Shown piece by piece: positions 1 through 43,209 of a DNA stretch of 43,209 nucleotides. This DNA comes from a virus. Position 1 is the first letter of the stretch; every line of letters begins with the position of its first letter. The stretch spans positions 1 through 43,209 of IMG/VR virus record IMGVR_UViG_3300045988_076668; one strand, written 5' to 3'. The notes beneath the pieces were generated by a model. It was not told the DNA's origin. It worked only from the letters and a program-made list of their open reading frames with translations, and made no database searches. Position numbers and translations under genes: made by a program.

Positions 1-99
1 AAAATTATCAGTTCGCTCATTTACACACTCCTTCTCATCGTTATCATATTTATGTTTATTAGTTGTTCGCGTTTACGCGAGTTAATCAGCAAAAAAAAT
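1..99. repeat. Terminal direct repeat copy A (99 bp, exact match to 43111-43209): circular-assembly overlap or terminal redundancy
   Basis: Bases 1-99 (aaaattatcagttcgctcat...gttaatcagcaaaaaaaat) recur exactly at 43111-43209, so the window closes on itself. Confidence 0.95.
67..80. promoter_or_regulatory. 14-bp palindrome TCGCG-TTTA-CGCGA; candidate operator between the cro-like gene and the antirepressor gene
   Basis: Same arms and spacing as the site at 311-324. Lies in the 61-bp gap between the cro-like stop (82) and the antirepressor ATG (position 20 = 43130). Confidence 0.45.
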
Positions 100-294: not shown

Positions 295-310
295 AATAGC
301 TTCTCCTTTC

Positions 311-324
311 TCGCGGCTTCGCGA
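311..324. promoter_or_regulatory. 14-bp palindrome TCGCG-GCTT-CGCGA; candidate operator in the switch region
   Basis: Perfect 5-bp inverted arms with a 4-bp spacer. Sits between the -10 of the cro-side promoter (337-342) and the cro SD. A related half-degenerate copy TCGCG-TATC-CGGTA lies at 344-357 inside that promoter's spacer. Confidence 0.55.
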
Positions 325-458: not shown

Positions 459-830
459 ATGCGTGTTGGCGAACGCATCAAATCAAGGAGAAAAGAAATT
501 GGATTATCTGCTGAAGAGGTTGCAAAAGAACTTGGCGTTTCTCCAGCAACTGTGTATCGGTATGAATCTAATGATATTATGAACATGAGAATTGATAAGC
601 TGGAACCGATTGCAAAGGCTTTGCGTACAACTCCTGCCTATCTCATGGGTTGGGAAGATGACAAAAAAGAAAATCCTCCGGCCGAAAGCCAGAGGATTCT
701 TGAAAGTGTCAATTCATCTGAAAATATAGACTTGCTTCTTCACATAATAAAGAATGAAGCATCTCTCAGCAGGGAACAACTTTTGAAGCTGCAAGGTTTT
801 GTGTCAGCGCTGGAAGCGGAAGATAAATAA
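459..830 (+). CDS. CI-like XRE-family HTH repressor (123 aa)
   Basis: Track ORF 450..830. ATG 459 is preferred because GAGAGG lies 8 nt upstream. HTH LSAEEVAKELGVSPATVYRYE. Position and divergent orientation are typical of a lysogeny repressor. Confidence 0.85.
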   Translation: MRVGERIKSRRKEIGLSAEEVAKELGVSPATVYRYESNDIMNMRIDKLEPIAKALRTTPAYLMGWEDDKKENPPAESQRILESVNSSENIDLLLHIIKNEASLSREQLLKLQGFVSALEAEDK

Positions 831-1289: not shown

Positions 1290-1544
1290 AACAAAACCCT
1301 CCATAAAGTAAGCGATAACAGTATCGTGTTATTTTAATCTACAATACCCGTTAGGATCTTCACCGCTGGATTTGTCATATTTTACCATAATATAACAGAA
1401 AAAACAACACAGGAAATGTCGAACGGCATAAAATTTTGCATCCTGCGTTTATTATAGCATATATTTCCCAATTGTGTCTATGGGGAATAAACGAGGAGTT
1501 TTTGTTCCTGTGTCCAGATATTCATGATACAAGGAGGTCTTATT

Positions 1545-29518: not shown

Positions 29519-29524
29519 GCTTAA

Positions 29525-29553
29525 ATTATATCGCAGCCCTCCATTTCGGTCAA
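29525..29553 (-). promoter_or_regulatory. Near-consensus sigma-70/sigma-A promoter TTGACC-17 nt-TATAAT facing terS
   Basis: Minus strand: TTGACC at 29553-29548, a 17-nt spacer, TATAAT at 29530-29525. It starts 27 nt after the RuvC-like stop. Confidence 0.7.
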
Positions 29554-38918: not shown

Positions 38919-38932
38919 TTTATGCTCCTTTC

Positions 38933-39532
38933 TCAAAACGGCAGCGGTCCGTCCCCACTGTCATTGTCCCAGGGCAAGGGCCCATCATCAGGAATGGCGG
39001 CGAAGCCGTTCGAGGGCGCTGTGGCCTTTTTCAAGGGCTTATCCGGGGGCAAGGTGTATTCCCCGTTGCGGACCCGATCTGCGCTCATGGCGCGGAAAGG
39101 ACGCACCGCCCAGCCGGTTTTCCCGTTATAGGACCATTCCTCATTCCGGAAGAGGATGCCCACCAACTTTCCCACCAGGGAAGTCTCCTCCCAGTTCCAG
39201 GTGTAGCCGGGGTTGGAGTGCTCAAAGGCGGTGGTCAAGCCTTTGAAAGAACTCTTTGTCCATTCATCGTTGTCAGTCCCATCGTCTTTGGGCAAGAACT
39301 GACGAATAACCCCCTTCCACTTTTTATCCTGCATGGTGTTGGCCTTAAACTCTTTGGAGAAGAACCCTCTCTGCTCTCCCTCCTCAATGTCGAAGAGGAC
39401 CAGCAGCTGGGGGCCATAATTGGTATCCGCAAAGGATACCTGTTTGACCCGGCAGACATAGGCGTCCAGGGGGAGTTTGGGACGGTCAGAGAACTCCTGC
39501 ACGGAATCCCAATTTTTCGGTTTTTGAATCAT
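38933..39532 (-). CDS. DUF669-like ssDNA-binding protein candidate (199 aa)
   Basis: Track ORF. Contains LPLDAYVCRVKQVSF...LLVLFDIEEGEQRGFF and an acidic SSB-like tip DNDSGDGPLPF. Adjacent to the AAA_24 ATPase. Confidence 0.68.
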   Translation of the reverse strand: MIQKPKNWDSVQEFSDRPKLPLDAYVCRVKQVSFADTNYGPQLLVLFDIEEGEQRGFFSKEFKANTMQDKKWKGVIRQFLPKDDGTDNDEWTKSSFKGLTTAFEHSNPGYTWNWEETSLVGKLVGILFRNEEWSYNGKTGWAVRPFRAMSADRVRNGEYTLPPDKPLKKATAPSNGFAAIPDDGPLPWDNDSGDGPLPF

Positions 39533-39705: not shown

Positions 39706-39935
39706 TCGCTTTGTTCCTCCTTGGTGTAAAATATAAGGGGGCATCTGCTCCCGATGTATTTGTCTGGGTACTCGCAAATTTCCCCGTTGAGACCGCAGCT
39801 GCGGTAGTTGCGGCGGTAGTATTTGCACTGATAGCAGCTAATGTCCACGTTACCCTTAAAGTCAACGGGAAACGTCACCTCAACCATGGCGCGGGCGCGG
39901 ATATATTCCTTCACCCCACGGGAGAATTCAGCCAT
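39702..39935 (-). CDS. Cys-rich hypothetical protein (77 aa)
   Basis: Track ORF. Its ATG overlaps the ATPase stop (ATGGCTGA). Confidence 0.55.
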   Translation of the reverse strand: MAEFSRGVKEYIRARAMVEVTFPVDFKGNVDISCYQCKYYRRNYRSCGLNGEICEYPDKYIGSRCPLIFYTKEEQSE

Positions 39936-40575
39936 TGTCTGTCGCCTCCTTGGGAGATGTGGTGGGGAGCAGCCCCCAATACTCTCTAATCCGCTGATCG
40001 ACGAATTTCAGATCATTCTCAATCTCCAGGTCAAACATTTCTTCGGGCGACTTAGAAATGTCCATTCCATTGGATTGGGTGCGGAAGAAATGGCGGTCCC
40101 CTTCCACCATGCAGCGCAGACAGATTGTGACCATCCCCTCAATGCAAACCTTCTCGTCCAGCAGCTTTCCAATGGTCCGCAGCTTGGTTTCTCCAAAGTC
40201 AGAGGTGGTTTCGTGCATGAGGATATAGACAATGACATCCTCTGGAAGCTGCGCCTGAATGAACATCAGCAGCCGCCAGAAATTGTCCGCGATATCGTTG
40301 TAGAGATCGAAGGTTGAGCTGCCCGCTTTGGGGGCGGAATGGCCTTTCATGAAAGTGTTCGTCAAAAGGTACCCAGCGTCATCAATGACAGCGGTTTTGG
40401 TGGGCATCTTTTGCAGGCCAGTGGTAATGGTCTGGTAGCTGTCTGTCTTCATCTGGTATCGGAAGGTCCCGGGGAAAGGCAAGCGTTTGCCCACCACGTT
40501 AATCAAAAAGATTTCATCTGGGGCAAAGTTTTTCAGGGAACGGGACTTCCCAGACCCGCTCTTGCCATAAATCAA
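39928..40575 (-). CDS. AAA_24 / Sak4-like recombination ATPase (about 215 aa)
   Basis: Track ORF (TTG start). Walker A YGKSGSGKS, Walker B AVIDDAGYL. The start codon is uncertain (see finding). Confidence 0.8.
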   Translation of the reverse strand: MIYGKSGSGKSRSLKNFAPDEIFLINVVGKRLPFPGTFRYQMKTDSYQTITTGLQKMPTKTAVIDDAGYLLTNTFMKGHSAPKAGSSTFDLYNDIADNFWRLLMFIQAQLPEDVIVYILMHETTSDFGETKLRTIGKLLDEKVCIEGMVTICLRCMVEGDRHFFRTQSNGMDISKSPEEMFDLEIENDLKFVDQRIREYWGLLPTTSPKEATDNG

Positions 40576-40593
40576 AACTGGAATCCCGATAAG

Positions 40594-40797
40594 TCATTCC
40601 CCCTTTTCGCCGCAGTCCAGGTATTCCTGAAATAGGTCCATCTTCTCGTCCAGATAGGCGGACATGGTGAAACTGTTATATAAGAACATGTAATCCATGA
40701 AGTCATCCAGGCATGTGTCCATGATAAAGTTCCGGCATGTCCTGGCAGAAACCTCTATGACCACCTTTTTGGGGAAAAAGTTGATTCGTTCCTCCAT
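40594..40797 (-). CDS. Hypothetical protein (67 aa)
   Basis: Track ORF. ATG 40797 lies 9 nt after GGAGG. Confidence 0.5.
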   Translation of the reverse strand: MEERINFFPKKVVIEVSARTCRNFIMDTCLDDFMDYMFLYNSFTMSAYLDEKMDLFQEYLDCGEKGE

Positions 40798-40798
40798 C

Positions 40799-40826
40799 TT
40801 GACAAACCTCCAATTTTTGTTACAAT
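40799..40826 (+). promoter_or_regulatory. Plus-strand promoter TTGACA-16 nt-TACAAT with TG extension
   Basis: TTGACA at 40799-40804 and TGtTACAAT at 40818-40826. It faces against the early operon and overlaps the SD of the 40797 gene. Confidence 0.6.
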
Positions 40827-40832
40827 AAAGTT

Positions 40833-40916
40833 AAGCGGAAGAAACATAGCTTATTTTTTCAAGTATTCTCCTTTCTGAACTCTGCCGGTGCTGCAAACCG
40901 GCAGAGTTTATTTTTC
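40833..40916 (+). ncRNA. About 85-nt antisense sRNA candidate (5' stem-loop, U-rich/anti-SD single strand, intrinsic terminator)
   Basis: Bounded by the promoter above and the terminator below. Contains no ATG. See finding. Confidence 0.5.
40878..40915 (+). terminator. Rho-independent terminator oriented for the plus strand
   Basis: AACTCTGCCGGT-gctgcaa-ACCGGCAGAGTT (12-bp perfect stem) followed by TATTTTT on the plus strand. The minus strand has no U tract after the stem. Confidence 0.75.
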
Positions 40917-41255
40917 GCCTTTTCCACGGAGTTCTTTTTTCCATCGGGTGATAACCGTGGTATTCACGCCGTAATGGTCGATCAGCTCATGGTATCGAAG
41001 CAGCTTCTCCTTCTCTGGGAAGTCCTCCGGCATGGGGATGCGGGGACGGCCTACCTTCTTCCTTGATTTACTCGGACAGCGCCCGCTGCAATCTGGATTG
41101 GTACAGTGCAAGCACTGCTGGATTTTCTCCGGGGAATCCCATCCAGGGTAGATTCCATTGCGTTTTCGGCGTTGGCCGGGAATGGGTTCAGAGGGCGCGT
41201 CGGCCCACGGCTTCCTCCCTTCGGTCTGCACCTTGACCCCGTTGATCTTCACCAT
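40908..41255 (-). CDS. Cys-cluster plus C-terminal HTH-like regulator candidate (115 aa)
   Basis: Track ORF. Contains CLHCTNPDCSGRC and ...LIDHYGVNTTVITRWKKEL. Confidence 0.6.
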   Translation of the reverse strand: MVKINGVKVQTEGRKPWADAPSEPIPGQRRKRNGIYPGWDSPEKIQQCLHCTNPDCSGRCPSKSRKKVGRPRIPMPEDFPEKEKLLRYHELIDHYGVNTTVITRWKKELRGKGEK

Positions 41256-41370
41256 ATCCCCACCCCCTTTCGCACCTGGGGCAGAGATATACCTTCTCTC
41301 CAGGTTCCAGGGCGGACACGTTCCACCGCTGCTTGCACCGGCGGAAGAGACGATACACCGCGCCCCTCAT
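41188..41370 (-). CDS. Possible small ORF (60 aa) overlapping the next gene by 68 nt
   Basis: Track ORF. ATGA coupling to the upstream small ORF. Contains CPRC. The extent is doubtful. Confidence 0.3.
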   Translation of the reverse strand: MRGAVYRLFRRCKQRWNVSALEPGEKVYLCPRCERGWGYGEDQRGQGADRREEAVGRRAL

Positions 41371-41534
41371 ACCACACGGAAGGGGATGCCCCGGCGGGCC
41401 AAGGCGGCGTTGATCCGGCTCTTCCCTACCTCCCTTCTGCGCCGGGCCTCCTGGCGCTTTCTGGCCGCTGGGGTAATGGCCCGTAACAGGATGTCCATAT
41501 CATGGCGTTGCTTGATCTCTTGTACTGGGTTCAT
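41367..41534 (-). CDS. Small basic protein (55 aa)
   Basis: Not in track. ATG 41534 follows GAAAGGAGAA. Translation MNPVQEIKQRHDMDILLRAITPAARKRQEARRRREVGKSRINAALARRGIPFRVV. Confidence 0.45.
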   Translation of the reverse strand: MNPVQEIKQRHDMDILLRAITPAARKRQEARRRREVGKSRINAALARRGIPFRVV

Positions 41535-41549
41535 TCCAAGTTCTCCTTT

Positions 41550-41804
41550 CTAAATTTTCCCGGCATGAATGATTGTTAAGTAATCCTCATCTGTAAAGCG
41601 AAGTGCTTCCCCCATAAGGATCAATTCATTGAGGGTAAACTTCCCTGGGTCTTTTCGACGGGCCTGCAATGGAGGTCTCGTTTGCAATCCGATGAGCATC
41701 GCAATGTTTTCTTCTGTCAGTCCAGCTCTTGCTTTTCCAATACGATACACAACGCCGAATTCATCCCGCCACCGGTCTACCCGGTTTTGCTTCTTCCTTC
41801 CCAT
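41550..41804 (-). CDS. Hypothetical DNA-binding-like protein (84 aa)
   Basis: Track ORF 41550..41939. ATG 41804 lies 7 nt after AGGAG. Confidence 0.5.
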   Translation of the reverse strand: MGRKKQNRVDRWRDEFGVVYRIGKARAGLTEENIAMLIGLQTRPPLQARRKDPGKFTLNELILMGEALRFTDEDYLTIIHAGKI

Positions 41805-42392: not shown

Positions 42393-43130
42393 TCATCCTG
42401 CTTTCAGGAATAGTAATCGGAAGGTTTCCCTCCCCTTTGGTGTTACCAAGGTCTGTGTCCCAGTCCATTGGGTCTTCTCGTTGAAGCACTCTTTCAATTC
42501 AAACAAACCGTTGTTAACATGAACCTGATAGGGCATCAGCTTACCTTTTTTGTCCCGGTACAGGTATTTACGAGAAAGAAGGAAAGAAATAAACTCTTTC
42601 GGTTTGACCCCGAGTTCCTTGGCTGTTTCCCGAAGACCTGTTAAAAGATTCCGGTCTACCAAATCGTCAAAGTAGTCCGCCTTTGGCTGCATGATCTGGT
42701 TTTCCACCGTCAGGGCGGACAGTCGGACTTTCTGATTCTCGATGGTCTTGTTCGCCATAATGAGCGCCGCCGCCATGAGTTCCTCGGGGGTCATGTTCTC
42801 CTGGCCGTTGATGTACCCACCGTTCTTGCGGATGGAGGGGAGAACCTCATCAAAAATCCAGCGTTCAAATTGATCCGCACCTGGTAATTCTGACCTGGCA
42901 GCCAGGCGGTAGATATCACCCTCGGGGATAAAGTTCATTTCCTGTTCTCCTCCGTTTGTAAGGGTGCGGCGCTTCACCGCCCCCTTGCAATGAGCAGAAA
43001 CCGCGTCCTTCGGGCGCTTATACCCAAGTGCCTTTGCTACATCAGACCCGCAGAACAGCACCTTGCCATCTTCTTCGATGGTGCGGATTTATCCAAACTC
43101 GGGATTGTTGAAAATTATCAGTTCGCTCAT
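42393..43130 (-). pseudogene. Bro-N / KilAC-type antirepressor interrupted by an in-frame TAA at codon 14
   Basis: ATG 43130 lies 7 nt after GAAGGAG and gives MSELIIFNNPEFG-TAA(43091-43089)-IRTIEEDGKVLFCGSDVAKALGY.... The track ORF 42393..43061 restarts at GTG. The C-terminal KilAC-like region is intact. Confidence 0.75.
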
Positions 43131-43209
43131 TTACACACTCCTTCTCATCGTTATCATATTTATGTTTATTAGTTGTTCGCGTTTACGCGAGTTAATCAGC
43201 AAAAAAAAT
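43111..43209. repeat. Terminal direct repeat copy B (exact match to 1-99)
   Basis: Read directly. Confidence 0.95.

What the first reader, a model, noticed from the sequence alone, without database searches (positions are those of the whole stretch)
40799..40916. OOP-like antisense sRNA candidate inside the early operon
In the 110-bp gap between two minus-strand early genes, the plus strand carries a strong promoter (TTGACA-16-TACAAT with a TG extension, 40799-40826). About 85 nt downstream it carries a textbook intrinsic terminator: a 12-bp perfect stem at 40878-40908 followed by TATTTTT. The U tract exists only on the plus strand. The predicted RNA (about 40833-40916) has no ATG and a 5' stem-loop (UAAGC/GCUUA, 40832-40853). 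It also has a single-stranded U-rich segment containing UUCUCCUUUCU (40866-40876). It is antisense to the intergenic part of the early mRNA, and its terminator overlaps the stop codon and last codons of gene 40908..41255. The geometry resembles lambda OOP RNA opposite cII. The 11-mer is identical to plus-strand 301-311, so it is perfectly complementary to the SD region of the cro-like mRNA (AGAAAGGAGAA). It has 9-nt matches to other SDs (upstream of 38918 and 41534). It could therefore also act in trans as an anti-SD RNA.
Basis: partly seen in the sequence, partly recalled or inferred. Interest (0 to 1): 0.62.

Follow-up and report, generated by a model that had tools for sequence, protein, structure and literature searches.

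The report
Backward small-RNA gene in phage early operon
A gut Clostridia phage carries, between two early genes, a conserved backward-pointing promoter and terminator that most likely make an ~84-nt antisense RNA like lambda's OOP, but its "anti-ribosome-site" stretch is only the mirror image of an overlooked ribosome site on the gene strand.

Summary
On the plus strand, TTGACA-16-TGtTACAAT (40799-40826) is one of only four sites with at least 11/12 promoter matches in this 43-kb circular phage. The hairpin plus T-run (40876-40916) is the third-strongest terminator. The ~84 nt between them hold no ATG.

Across 60 related sequences (29 haplotypes) from gut viromes and metagenomes, promoter and stem are the most conserved stretches of the region. 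The loop, the RNA's 5' half and the flanking gene ends vary freely. One lineage changes the -10 to perfect TATAAT.

More distant relatives lack the whole cassette, so it is an accessory plug-in.

That site serves a conserved minus-strand mini-ORF (TTG/ATG-AAA-AAA...). The same 11-mer is this phage's standard ribosome site, with three exact copies. The trans "anti-SD" idea therefore rests only on automatic complementarity. The 5' stem-loop is weak and not conserved.

No Rfam family matches.

Verdict: a probable cis-antisense sRNA gene with OOP-like geometry but no homology to OOP, a new member of a known kind. Other agents of this scan flagged similar cassettes in other phages.

The parts
40799..40804 (+). 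-35 hexamer TTGACA. It lies in the spacer between the SD and the ATG of the minus-strand 67-aa gene.
   Evidence: Variable in 1 of 6 columns over 29 haplotypes: TTGAAA in L178/L183. CTGACA occurs in L185, which was left out of that count.
40818..40826 (+). Extended -10, TG-T-TACAAT.
   Evidence: TG is invariant. The only change is C to T, giving perfect TATAAT in the L034/L184/L187 lineage.
40833..40916 (+). Predicted non-coding antisense RNA of about 84 nt. The TSS is inferred 7 nt after the -10, and the 3' end in the T run.
   Evidence: No ATG. Fold -27.9 kcal/mol, z = -4.5. Length is 84-85 nt in all three diverged alleles. No Rfam match. Expression was not tested.
40876..40910 (+). Terminator hairpin: 14 pairs (12 perfect) with a 7-nt loop.
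   Evidence: Stem variable in 3 of 27 columns against 6 of 7 for the loop. Three one-sided changes keep pairing on the plus strand (G-U to G-C, A-U to G-U). On the minus strand, the haplotypes that carry a G-U have an unpairable A-C there.
40911..40916 (+). T tract of the terminator. It overlaps the last codons of the 115-aa gene.
   Evidence: It is kept (TTTTT or TTTTTT) behind at least five diverged alleles of the upstream gene's 3' end, and is weaker (AATTTT) only in L021/L153.
40866..40876 (-). Shine-Dalgarno AGAAAGGAGAA of a minus-strand mini-ORF.
   Evidence: Three exact copies in the window, all with the SD sense on the minus strand. There are 5 nt between GGAG and the start codon.
40851..40862 (-). 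Mini-ORF TTG AAA AAA TAA (MKK*).
   Evidence: Relatives have ATG AAA AAA followed by TAA (L034), by 9 codons MKKLFSL[CY]S (L020-L022), or by 26-35 codons (L007, L015). Only the start and the two Lys codons are conserved.
40755..40847 (-). 30-aa ORF starting 3 nt after the mini-ORF stop and overlapping the start of the 67-aa gene out of frame. Probably not a conserved protein.
   Evidence: Its length and sequence vary with changes that are synonymous or conservative (I/V) in the 67-aa gene, and it is absent in L020-L022.
40594..40797 (-). 67-aa early gene of unknown function, first gene of the recombination/replication block. It has its own GGAGG SD at 40808-40812.
   Evidence: The next gene downstream is a Sak4-like annealing protein (39928-40575; phrog_2872, 1e-70).
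40908..41255 (-). 115-aa early gene of unknown function, with a Cys cluster and a basic C-terminus. Its stop codon lies inside the hairpin base.
   Evidence: no family. 20 IMG/VR relatives.

Best explanation
This is a small accessory gene for a cis-antisense RNA of about 84 nt. A near-consensus, regulator-free housekeeping-sigma promoter with an extended -10 fires backwards into the phage's minus-strand early operon, and a strong intrinsic terminator stops transcription after about 84 nt.

The RNA is perfectly complementary to the early mRNA across four features:
- the stop codon of the 115-aa gene;
- a stable hairpin;
- the strong ribosome site;
- the start of a mini-ORF that precedes the recombination/replication block (67-aa gene, Sak4-like protein, replisome organiser, DnaC-like loader).

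Inferred mechanism: pairing makes an ~84-bp duplex. The duplex occludes the mini-ORF ribosome site and offers a substrate for RNase III, so the early mRNA is cut or destabilised at this junction. Convergent transcription adds interference. Because the promoter needs no phage factor, the RNA would be made in lysogens as well. There it would damp leaky or incoming expression of the replication block.

Shown here: the signals, their statistical rarity, their conservation, and the complementarity. Inferred: transcription itself, RNase III involvement and the phenotype.
For: - **Rarity of the promoter.** It is one of four sites with at least 11/12 matches in the genome. With the TG extension 0.03 are expected per genome. 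One of the other three is the expected cro-side early promoter, so the scan is meaningful here.
- **Rarity of the terminator.** It is the third-strongest in the genome. It lies about 50 nt downstream of the promoter on the same strand, inside a 110-nt intergenic gap. The U tract exists on the plus strand only.
- **Conservation.** 60 sequences give 29 haplotypes. Variable columns:
  - -35: 1/6
  - spacer: 1/13
  - TG plus -10: 1/9
  - stem: 3/27
  - loop: 6/7
  - RNA 5' half: 77%
  - 3' end of the 115-aa gene: 80%
  - 67-aa gene: 36%
- **Direction of the changes.** The single -10 change improves it to TATAAT. The -10 stays conserved in the L020-L022 alleles, where it is non-coding on the minus strand.
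- **Strand bias of the stem.** Stem changes give G-U or G-C on the plus strand; where the plus strand has G-U, the minus strand has A-C. The hairpin is 3-4 kcal/mol more stable on the plus strand in three of five stem variants.
- **T tract and length.** The T tract is kept behind at least five diverged upstream-gene alleles. RNA length is constant (84-85 nt) across three essentially unalignable alleles of its 5' half.
- **No ORF** on the plus strand.
Against:
- All carriers are close relatives (Sak4-like protein at least 94% identical) and the genomes are mosaic. Part of the conservation may therefore reflect recent shared ancestry or recombination at module boundaries rather than selection.
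- Both conserved islands also hold minus-strand signals: the RBS and start of the 67-aa gene, and the hairpin plus SD of the mini-ORF. Conservation alone does not say which strand is selected.
- No compensatory double change was seen in the stem.
- Three haplotypes weaken the -35: TTGAAA in two and CTGACA in one.
- The 67-aa gene has its own good RBS, so blocking the mini-ORF need not affect it.
- More distant relatives do without the cassette.
Confidence: 0.5

Rival explanations
1. Sense-strand element only. The conserved hairpin and strong SD/mini-ORF act on the minus-strand early mRNA. Possible roles are a processing or stability element (a 5' hairpin plus ribosome-bound 'STAB-SD'-type protector of the downstream replication-block mRNA in a Firmicute host) or a ribosome-loading leader. 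Under this reading the plus-strand promoter and U tract are by-products of an AT-rich RBS region and a Lys-rich C-terminus.
For: - The SD belongs to a mini-ORF whose start and MKK codons are conserved in all alleles.
- The -35 lies in the SD-to-ATG spacer of the 67-aa gene. The T tract is the codons GAA AAA TAA.
- The hairpin is nearly as stable on the minus strand, at -19 to -27 kcal/mol.
- Conservation cannot assign a strand.
Against: - An 11/12 promoter with TG extension is expected 0.03 times per genome. Having it in the right order and at the right distance from one of the three best terminators is far less likely by chance.
- The -10 stays conserved where it is non-coding, and its one change is towards consensus.
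- G-U pairs favour the plus strand.
- The T tract persists when the C-terminal coding sequence is replaced, as in L034.
Confidence: 0.25
2. Empty or decayed moron slot. The promoter and terminator are the shell of an accessory cassette whose gene was lost, or the minus-strand small ORF is the remnant of a lost gene. Any RNA made has no function.
For: - The cassette is absent in more distant relatives, where the flanking genes abut or overlap.
- The mini-ORF is truncated by TAA at codon 4 in the commonest haplotype.
- The middle part is hypervariable.
- The site tolerates an IS110-type insertion (L185) and a tandem hybrid (L156).
Against: - None of the 60 relatives carries a gene between promoter and terminator.
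- Length is held at 84-85 nt in all but one.
- Promoter and stem are the most conserved parts of the region.
Confidence: 0.12
3. Trans-acting anti-SD regulator. The U-rich 11-mer pairs with the ribosome sites of the cro-like gene and other early genes and represses them.
For: There are exact 11-nt complements at the SDs of the cro-like gene (301-311) and of the 55-aa gene (41541-41551), and a 10/11 match at 38923-38933.
Against: - The 11-mer is the complement of a local SD, so these matches are automatic.
- It shares 9 of 11 nt with the 3' tail of Firmicute 16S rRNA (own knowledge). It would therefore match any strong SD of phage or host without specificity.
- Pairing does not extend beyond the 11 nt at 301-311 (read).
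- The segment is partly paired in the MFE fold.
- In L034 the SD is weakened to AGAAAAGAGAA with no matching change elsewhere.
Confidence: 0.07
4. Type I toxin-antitoxin pair. The minus-strand small ORF is a toxic peptide and the antisense RNA is its antitoxin.
For: The anatomy fits in outline. There is a small ORF of 26-35 codons with a strong SD in some relatives (MKKQSMFLPLSFIVTKIGGLSRWRNE...), overlapped at its 5' end by a constitutive antisense RNA. Prophages often carry such pairs (PMC3531473, title and abstract).
Against: - The peptide is not conserved. It is 3 codons in the window and the commonest haplotype, 9 codons in a second allele, and 26 or 35 in others. Its length is set by changes that are synonymous or conservative (I/V) in the overlapping 67-aa gene.
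- Its hydrophobic stretch is only about 10 residues, which is no transmembrane helix.
- The ORF has no promoter of its own.
Confidence: 0.05

Closest known systems
Lambda OOP RNA (77-nt cis-antisense RNA from pO opposite cII; RNase III-dependent decay of cII mRNA; PMC12197685)
   Same: - A short (~80 nt) non-coding RNA with its own backward-facing promoter and intrinsic terminator inside the rightward-equivalent early operon.
- It is placed at the junction between small early genes and the replication genes.
- Its terminator overlaps the 3' end of the upstream gene.
   Different: - No sequence or structure homology, and no Rfam match.
- The host is a Lachnospiraceae-type Firmicute, not an enterobacterium.
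- The overlap with the upstream gene is only its last 9 nt (40908-40916). OOP overlaps about 55 nt of cII (own knowledge).
- The main target here is an intergenic hairpin plus the RBS of a mini-ORF.
- The upstream 115-aa gene has no recognisable cII-like family.
- RNase III dependence is untested.
P22 sar RNA (68/69 nt, pairs with the ant mRNA ribosome site; PMC12197685) and the P1/P7 c4 RNA, which blocks the RBS of the small upstream ORF icd to shut off ant (own knowledge)
   Same: - A small phage antisense RNA that covers a ribosome site in an early transcript.
- In the c4 case the occluded RBS belongs to a small upstream ORF.
   Different: - sar and c4 control an antirepressor. Here the antirepressor gene (42393-43061) lies 1.5 kb upstream and is not overlapped.
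- c4 is processed from the same-sense transcript and acts in trans.
- No homology.
Phage morons / plug-in sRNA cassettes (accessory units with their own promoter and terminator between phage genes); an earlier scan note, e1-3133979, describes one in another gut phage
   Same: - A self-contained promoter-terminator unit inserted between two genes that abut in more distant relatives.
- GC dips to 37% against 50-60% in the flanks.
   Different: - No protein-coding cargo.
- No flanking repeats.
- The cassette also carries a sense-strand SD and mini-ORF.

Membership tests
Lambda OOP RNA family | Sequence or structure homology to OOP of lambdoid phages | tested here: not met
   No Rfam family reaches its gathering score in the window. 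The permissive scan of 40600-41100 gives only noise at E = 0.7-7. No DNA match in 50,697 phage records. I did not verify that Rfam holds an OOP model.
Lambda OOP RNA family | Own promoter facing against the early operon, about 80 nt upstream of an intrinsic terminator that overlaps the 3' end of the upstream early gene | tested here: met
   The last 9 nt of the predicted RNA (40908-40916) cover the stop codon and the last two codons of the 115-aa gene.
Lambda OOP RNA family | The target gene is the cII lysogeny activator | tested here: inconclusive
   The 115-aa protein matches no Pfam or PHROG family.
Lambda OOP RNA family | RNase III-dependent cleavage of the paired mRNA | not testable with these tools
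   Needs an experiment.
Cis-encoded antisense sRNA gene (generic) | The RNA is actually transcribed from the antisense strand | not testable with these tools
Cis-encoded antisense sRNA gene (generic) | Promoter and terminator conserved in relatives beyond the background | tested here: met
   29 haplotypes: -35 variable in 1/6 columns, TG plus -10 in 1/9, stem in 3/27, against 36-80% in the flanks and 86% in the loop. Caveat: the relatives are close and the genomes mosaic.
Rho-independent terminator | G+C-rich stem-loop directly followed by a U tract on the transcribed strand | tested here: met
   14-pair stem, 7 of them G-C, then TTTTT on the plus strand only.
Type I toxin-antitoxin system | Conserved small hydrophobic (transmembrane) toxin ORF | tested here: not met
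   The ORF is 3, 9, 26 or 35 codons in different haplotypes. Only M-K-K is conserved.
Trans-acting anti-SD sRNA | A target-specific seed beyond what complementarity to any SD gives | tested here: not met
   The 11-mer is the complement of the phage's standard SD. There is no extension of pairing at 301-311.

The most novel reading that the evidence does not exclude
The cassette could be an RNA-based cross-immunity (heteroimmunity) determinant. A resident prophage would constitutively make the antisense RNA, which would pair with the identical junction of the early mRNA of incoming related phages and block their replication block.

The 5' half of the RNA is where antisense pairing usually starts. 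It exists in at least three essentially unalignable alleles of the same length, flanked by invariant promoter and terminator islands. One contig, L156, is a tandem hybrid of two alleles. These alleles would then be specificity variants exchanged by recombination, as with the antisense-RNA incompatibility groups of plasmids or P1/P7 c4.
Probability: 0.12. Interest if true: 0.6.

Novelty: new member of a known kind. Interest (0 to 1): 0.36.

Why it matters
Antisense control of temperate-phage early operons is textbook for enterobacterial phages (OOP, sar, c4, anti-Q). It is hardly documented for phages of gut Clostridia, which dominate the human virome.

If expressed, this RNA would be a simple, testable handle on how such prophages keep their replication genes silent. 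Its allelic 5' half could explain interference between co-resident relatives.

The check also shows that an "anti-SD" stretch in an antisense RNA is uninformative when a sense-strand ribosome site lies opposite. That is a recurrent trap for sequence-only reading.

Tried and rejected
- **Rfam.** The gathering-threshold scan of the whole window and the permissive scan of 40600-41100 found nothing credible.
- **blastn of 40300-41600 against 50,697 phage records.** No match.
- **Profile search of metagenomes with a 67-aa family alignment.** A single-protein search was used instead.
- **Hairpin pattern in genome contigs.** 32 hits, mostly Streptomyces and all unrelated chance palindromes. The two 'Clostridiales' hits (L141, L143) also lie in a different context. 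No host genome was found this way.
- **Covariance model R1 of the RNA, searched in 58 more distant relatives.** No diverged copy. The only extra hit, window 662-746 on the minus strand (28 bits), is another terminator.
- **5' stem-loop and SD/CU-tract pairing.** The energies are weak (-5 to -12 kcal/mol), mostly not better than shuffles and not strand-diagnostic.
- **Flanking repeats that would mark a mobile insertion.** None.
- **Type I toxin reading and trans anti-SD reading.** Rejected for the reasons given under the rival explanations.
- **L185 as a natural hairpin-less variant.** Rejected. It is an IS110-family transposase insertion between the SD and the hairpin.

Full report
**Context.** The window is a complete IMG/VR virus record of 43,209 bp with direct terminal repeats.
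- Its first ~100 nt repeat its last ~100 nt.
- Nearly all lytic genes lie on the minus strand.
- A CI-like gene (plus strand, 459-830) and a cro-like gene (minus strand, start near 297) face each other at the window start. Early transcription therefore runs on the minus strand across the junction into 43,061 and downwards.
- Around the finding, in minus-strand order, lie:
  - an antirepressor (Bro-N/ANT, 42393-43061);
  - an HTH protein;
  - several small genes;
  - a 115-aa gene (40908-41255);
  - a 110-nt gap;
  - a 67-aa gene (40594-40797);
  - a Sak4-like annealing protein (39928-40575);
  - further on, a replisome organiser and a DnaC-like loader.
- By Sak4-like protein similarity, the nearest cultured phages infect Anaerostipes, Mediterraneibacter gnavus and Roseburia. 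All related contigs come from human-gut samples. The host is most likely a Lachnospiraceae-type Firmicute, for which the sigma-70-type consensus with a TG extension is appropriate (own knowledge).

- The plus strand carries TTGACA (40799-40804), a 16-nt spacer and TG-T-TACAAT (40818-40826), an 11/12 match.
- My scan of the whole window on both strands finds only four sites with at least 11/12 matches. A first-order Markov simulation gives 0.69 expected, and 0.03 for sites that also have TG.
- The other three are the cro-side early promoter at 365, a promoter at 1480 in front of a small minus-strand accessory unit, and one at 29553 at the early/late boundary. These are biologically sensible places, so the scan is informative in this genome.
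- About 50 nt downstream on the same strand lies a hairpin with a 12-bp perfect core, 14 pairs in all (40876-40910), and a 7-nt loop, followed by TTTTT. It ranks third among all terminator-like hairpins of the genome.
- On the minus strand the same stem is followed by UUCAGAAAGG, so the terminator is plus-strand specific.
- The 84 nt between the inferred start (about 40833) and the T run contain no ATG and no credible ORF.
- The RNA folds at -27.9 kcal/mol, z = -4.5, almost entirely because of the terminator stem.

Read on the minus strand, the gap is:
- the stop of the 115-aa gene;
- the hairpin;
- AGAAAGGAGAA;
- 5 nt;
- TTG AAA AAA TAA;
- GCT ATG..., a 30-codon ORF that runs out of frame into the start of the 67-aa gene.

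The "single-stranded U-rich segment UUCUCCUUUCU" is therefore the reverse complement of a strong Shine-Dalgarno site that serves a mini-ORF.

Relatives confirm this. All have a start codon at the same place (ATG in several lineages, TTG in the commonest) followed by AAA AAA. After that they differ:

| Lineage | After AAA AAA |
|---|---|
| Window type, L034 type | TAA (3 codons) |
| L020-L022 | 9 codons, MKKLFSL[CY]S |
| L007 | 26 codons |
| L015 | 35 codons |

- The peptide beyond MKK is not conserved. Its length changes with substitutions that are synonymous or conservative (I/V) in the overlapping 67-aa gene.
- The same 11-mer occurs exactly three times in the window (301-311, 40866-40876, 41541-41551) and twice with one mismatch. 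In every case the SD sense is on the minus strand, in front of minus-strand genes.
- It is the phage's standard ribosome site, nearly the full complement of the 16S rRNA 3' tail (own knowledge).
- Complementarity of the antisense RNA to "other SDs" is therefore automatic and says nothing about action in trans.

**Relatives.**
- I collected 20 IMG/VR loci through the 115-aa protein, 80 through the Sak4-like protein, 22 through the hairpin pattern and 38 metagenome loci through the 67-aa protein.
- The cassette is present in every contig whose Sak4-like protein is at least 94% identical. L041 is the one locus where the upstream region was not held.
- It is absent from more distant relatives (83% identity or less). 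There the homologue of the 67-aa gene abuts or overlaps the preceding gene. A covariance model of the RNA finds no diverged copy in them.
- The cassette is therefore an accessory insertion of one clade. It has a GC dip to 37% and no flanking repeats.

**Conservation pattern.** Sixty sequences give 31 unique haplotypes. Of these, 29 were aligned; L185 and L156 were set aside.

| Segment | Variable columns |
|---|---|
| 67-aa gene | 36% |
| Start codon / -35 / SD block | 1 of 18 |
| -35 | 1 of 6 |
| Spacer | 1 of 13 |
| TG plus -10 | 1 of 9 |
| RNA 5' half (40831-40856) | 77% |
| Stem arms | 3 of 27 |
| Loop | 6 of 7 |
| T tract | 2 of 6 |
| 3' end of the 115-aa gene | 80% |

- Two islands thus stand out of a variable background. 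One is the promoter, which overlaps the RBS of the 67-aa gene. The other is the SD plus hairpin plus T tract.
- The stem-versus-loop contrast shows that the hairpin as a structure is selected.

Four details favour the plus strand:
1. The -10 is conserved in the L020-L022 alleles, where it is non-coding on the minus strand.
2. Its only change is C to T, giving a perfect TATAAT in the L034/L184/L187 lineage.
3. The one-sided stem differences give G-U or G-C on the plus strand; a G-U there is an A-C mismatch on the minus strand. The hairpin is 3-4 kcal/mol more stable on the plus strand in three of five stem variants.
4. A T tract follows the stem behind at least five different alleles of the upstream gene's 3' end, including L034, where the C-terminal coding sequence is replaced.

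Also, the RNA keeps a length of 84-85 nt in three alleles whose 5' halves are essentially unalignable.

Against over-reading:
- All carriers are close relatives with mosaic genomes.
- There is no compensatory double change in the stem.
- Three haplotypes weaken the -35 (TTGAAA, CTGACA).
- Both islands also carry minus-strand signals.

**Structure of the RNA.**
- Only the terminator hairpin is a consensus structure.
It is no better than shuffles in the window allele (z = +0.4) and is replaced by other sequence in L020-L022.
- In most alleles a purine-rich tract near the 5' end can pair weakly with the U-rich segment. On the mRNA, equivalently, the SD can pair with a downstream CU-rich tract. 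The energies are small and not strand-diagnostic.

**Most likely mechanism.**
- I read the unit as a cis-antisense sRNA gene. A constitutive promoter makes an ~84-nt RNA that is fully complementary to the early mRNA from the stop codon of the 115-aa gene through the hairpin, the SD and the start of the mini-ORF.
- Pairing would occlude that ribosome site and create a long duplex for RNase III. This would uncouple or destabilise the downstream recombination/replication block. Convergent transcription would add interference.
- These steps are inferred by analogy with OOP/cII (PMC12197685) and with RNase III-dependent antisense control in Firmicutes (PMC3531473). None is shown here.
- The 67-aa gene has its own GGAGG site, so an effect through translational coupling alone is not compelling.
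- I give this reading 0.5.

The rivals:

| Reading | Confidence |
|---|---|
| Islands serve only the sense-strand mRNA | 0.25 |
| Functionless cassette shell | 0.12 |
| Trans anti-SD action | 0.07 |
| Type I toxin-antitoxin pair | 0.05 |

**Comparison with known systems.**
- The geometry matches lambda OOP: size, own promoter and terminator, and position at the boundary with the replication genes.
- There is no homology and no Rfam match, and the overlap with the upstream gene is only 9 nt.
- The idea of an antisense RNA covering the RBS of a small upstream ORF recalls P1/P7 c4-icd-ant, but that RNA is processed from a sense transcript and acts in trans (own knowledge).
- Other agents of this scan reported comparable backward promoter-terminator cassettes in other phages. 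One of them reached the same conclusion about automatic RBS complementarity. I treat these as leads, not evidence.
- Verdict: a new member of a known kind, of moderate interest, unproven until a plus-strand transcript is shown.

**Most novel reading not excluded.** The three length-matched but unalignable alleles of the RNA's 5' half sit between invariant promoter and terminator islands, and one contig is a tandem hybrid (L156). These would fit specificity alleles of an RNA-based cross-immunity between related prophages. I put this at about 0.12.

Noticed in passing
L185:1-1200 (metagenome contig OKSC01003122.1): In this relative an IS110-family-like transposase gene (319 aa or more, opposite strand) sits exactly between the mini-ORF SD and the place of the hairpin. 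The promoter, mini-ORF and 67-aa gene remain, but the terminator is displaced. The insertion point is next to the palindrome, a kind of target such IS elements are known to prefer (own knowledge).
   Followed up: partly
L156 (ENA OVGQ01005020.1), upstream of the 67-aa gene: This is a tandem hybrid of two alleles of the cassette's middle part: the L020 type followed by the window type, joined at the shared TTTTTTCAT motif. The predicted RNA would be about 35 nt longer. This is evidence of recombination inside the cassette.
   Followed up: no
window 670-700 (minus strand) and 1451-1480 (minus strand): A strong minus-strand terminator (14-pair stem plus TTTTTT, fourth-strongest in the genome) lies inside the CI-like repressor gene (459-830). 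It is fed by an 11/12 promoter with TG at 1480 that precedes a small two-gene minus-strand unit. That transcript would overlap the last ~160 nt of the repressor mRNA convergently.
   Followed up: partly
window 1-99 and 43111-43209: A direct terminal repeat of about 99 nt. The plus-strand promoter-like site TTTACA-16-TATCAT appears at both 20 and 43130. Features near the ends are therefore counted twice in whole-window scans.
   Followed up: partly
window 40876-40795 (minus-strand mRNA): In six of seven cassette haplotypes folded, including all three diverged alleles, the MFE fold of the early mRNA pairs the mini-ORF SD with a CU-rich tract 15-25 nt downstream (UUUCUUCC, UUUUCUCUUU). The energies are weak and the significance is unclear.
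   Followed up: partly
window 29524-29553 (minus strand): TTGACC-17-TATAAT (11/12) at the early/late boundary is one of the four best promoter matches of the genome. An earlier scan note places a ~430-nt structured leader RNA and a tRNA there.
   Followed up: no
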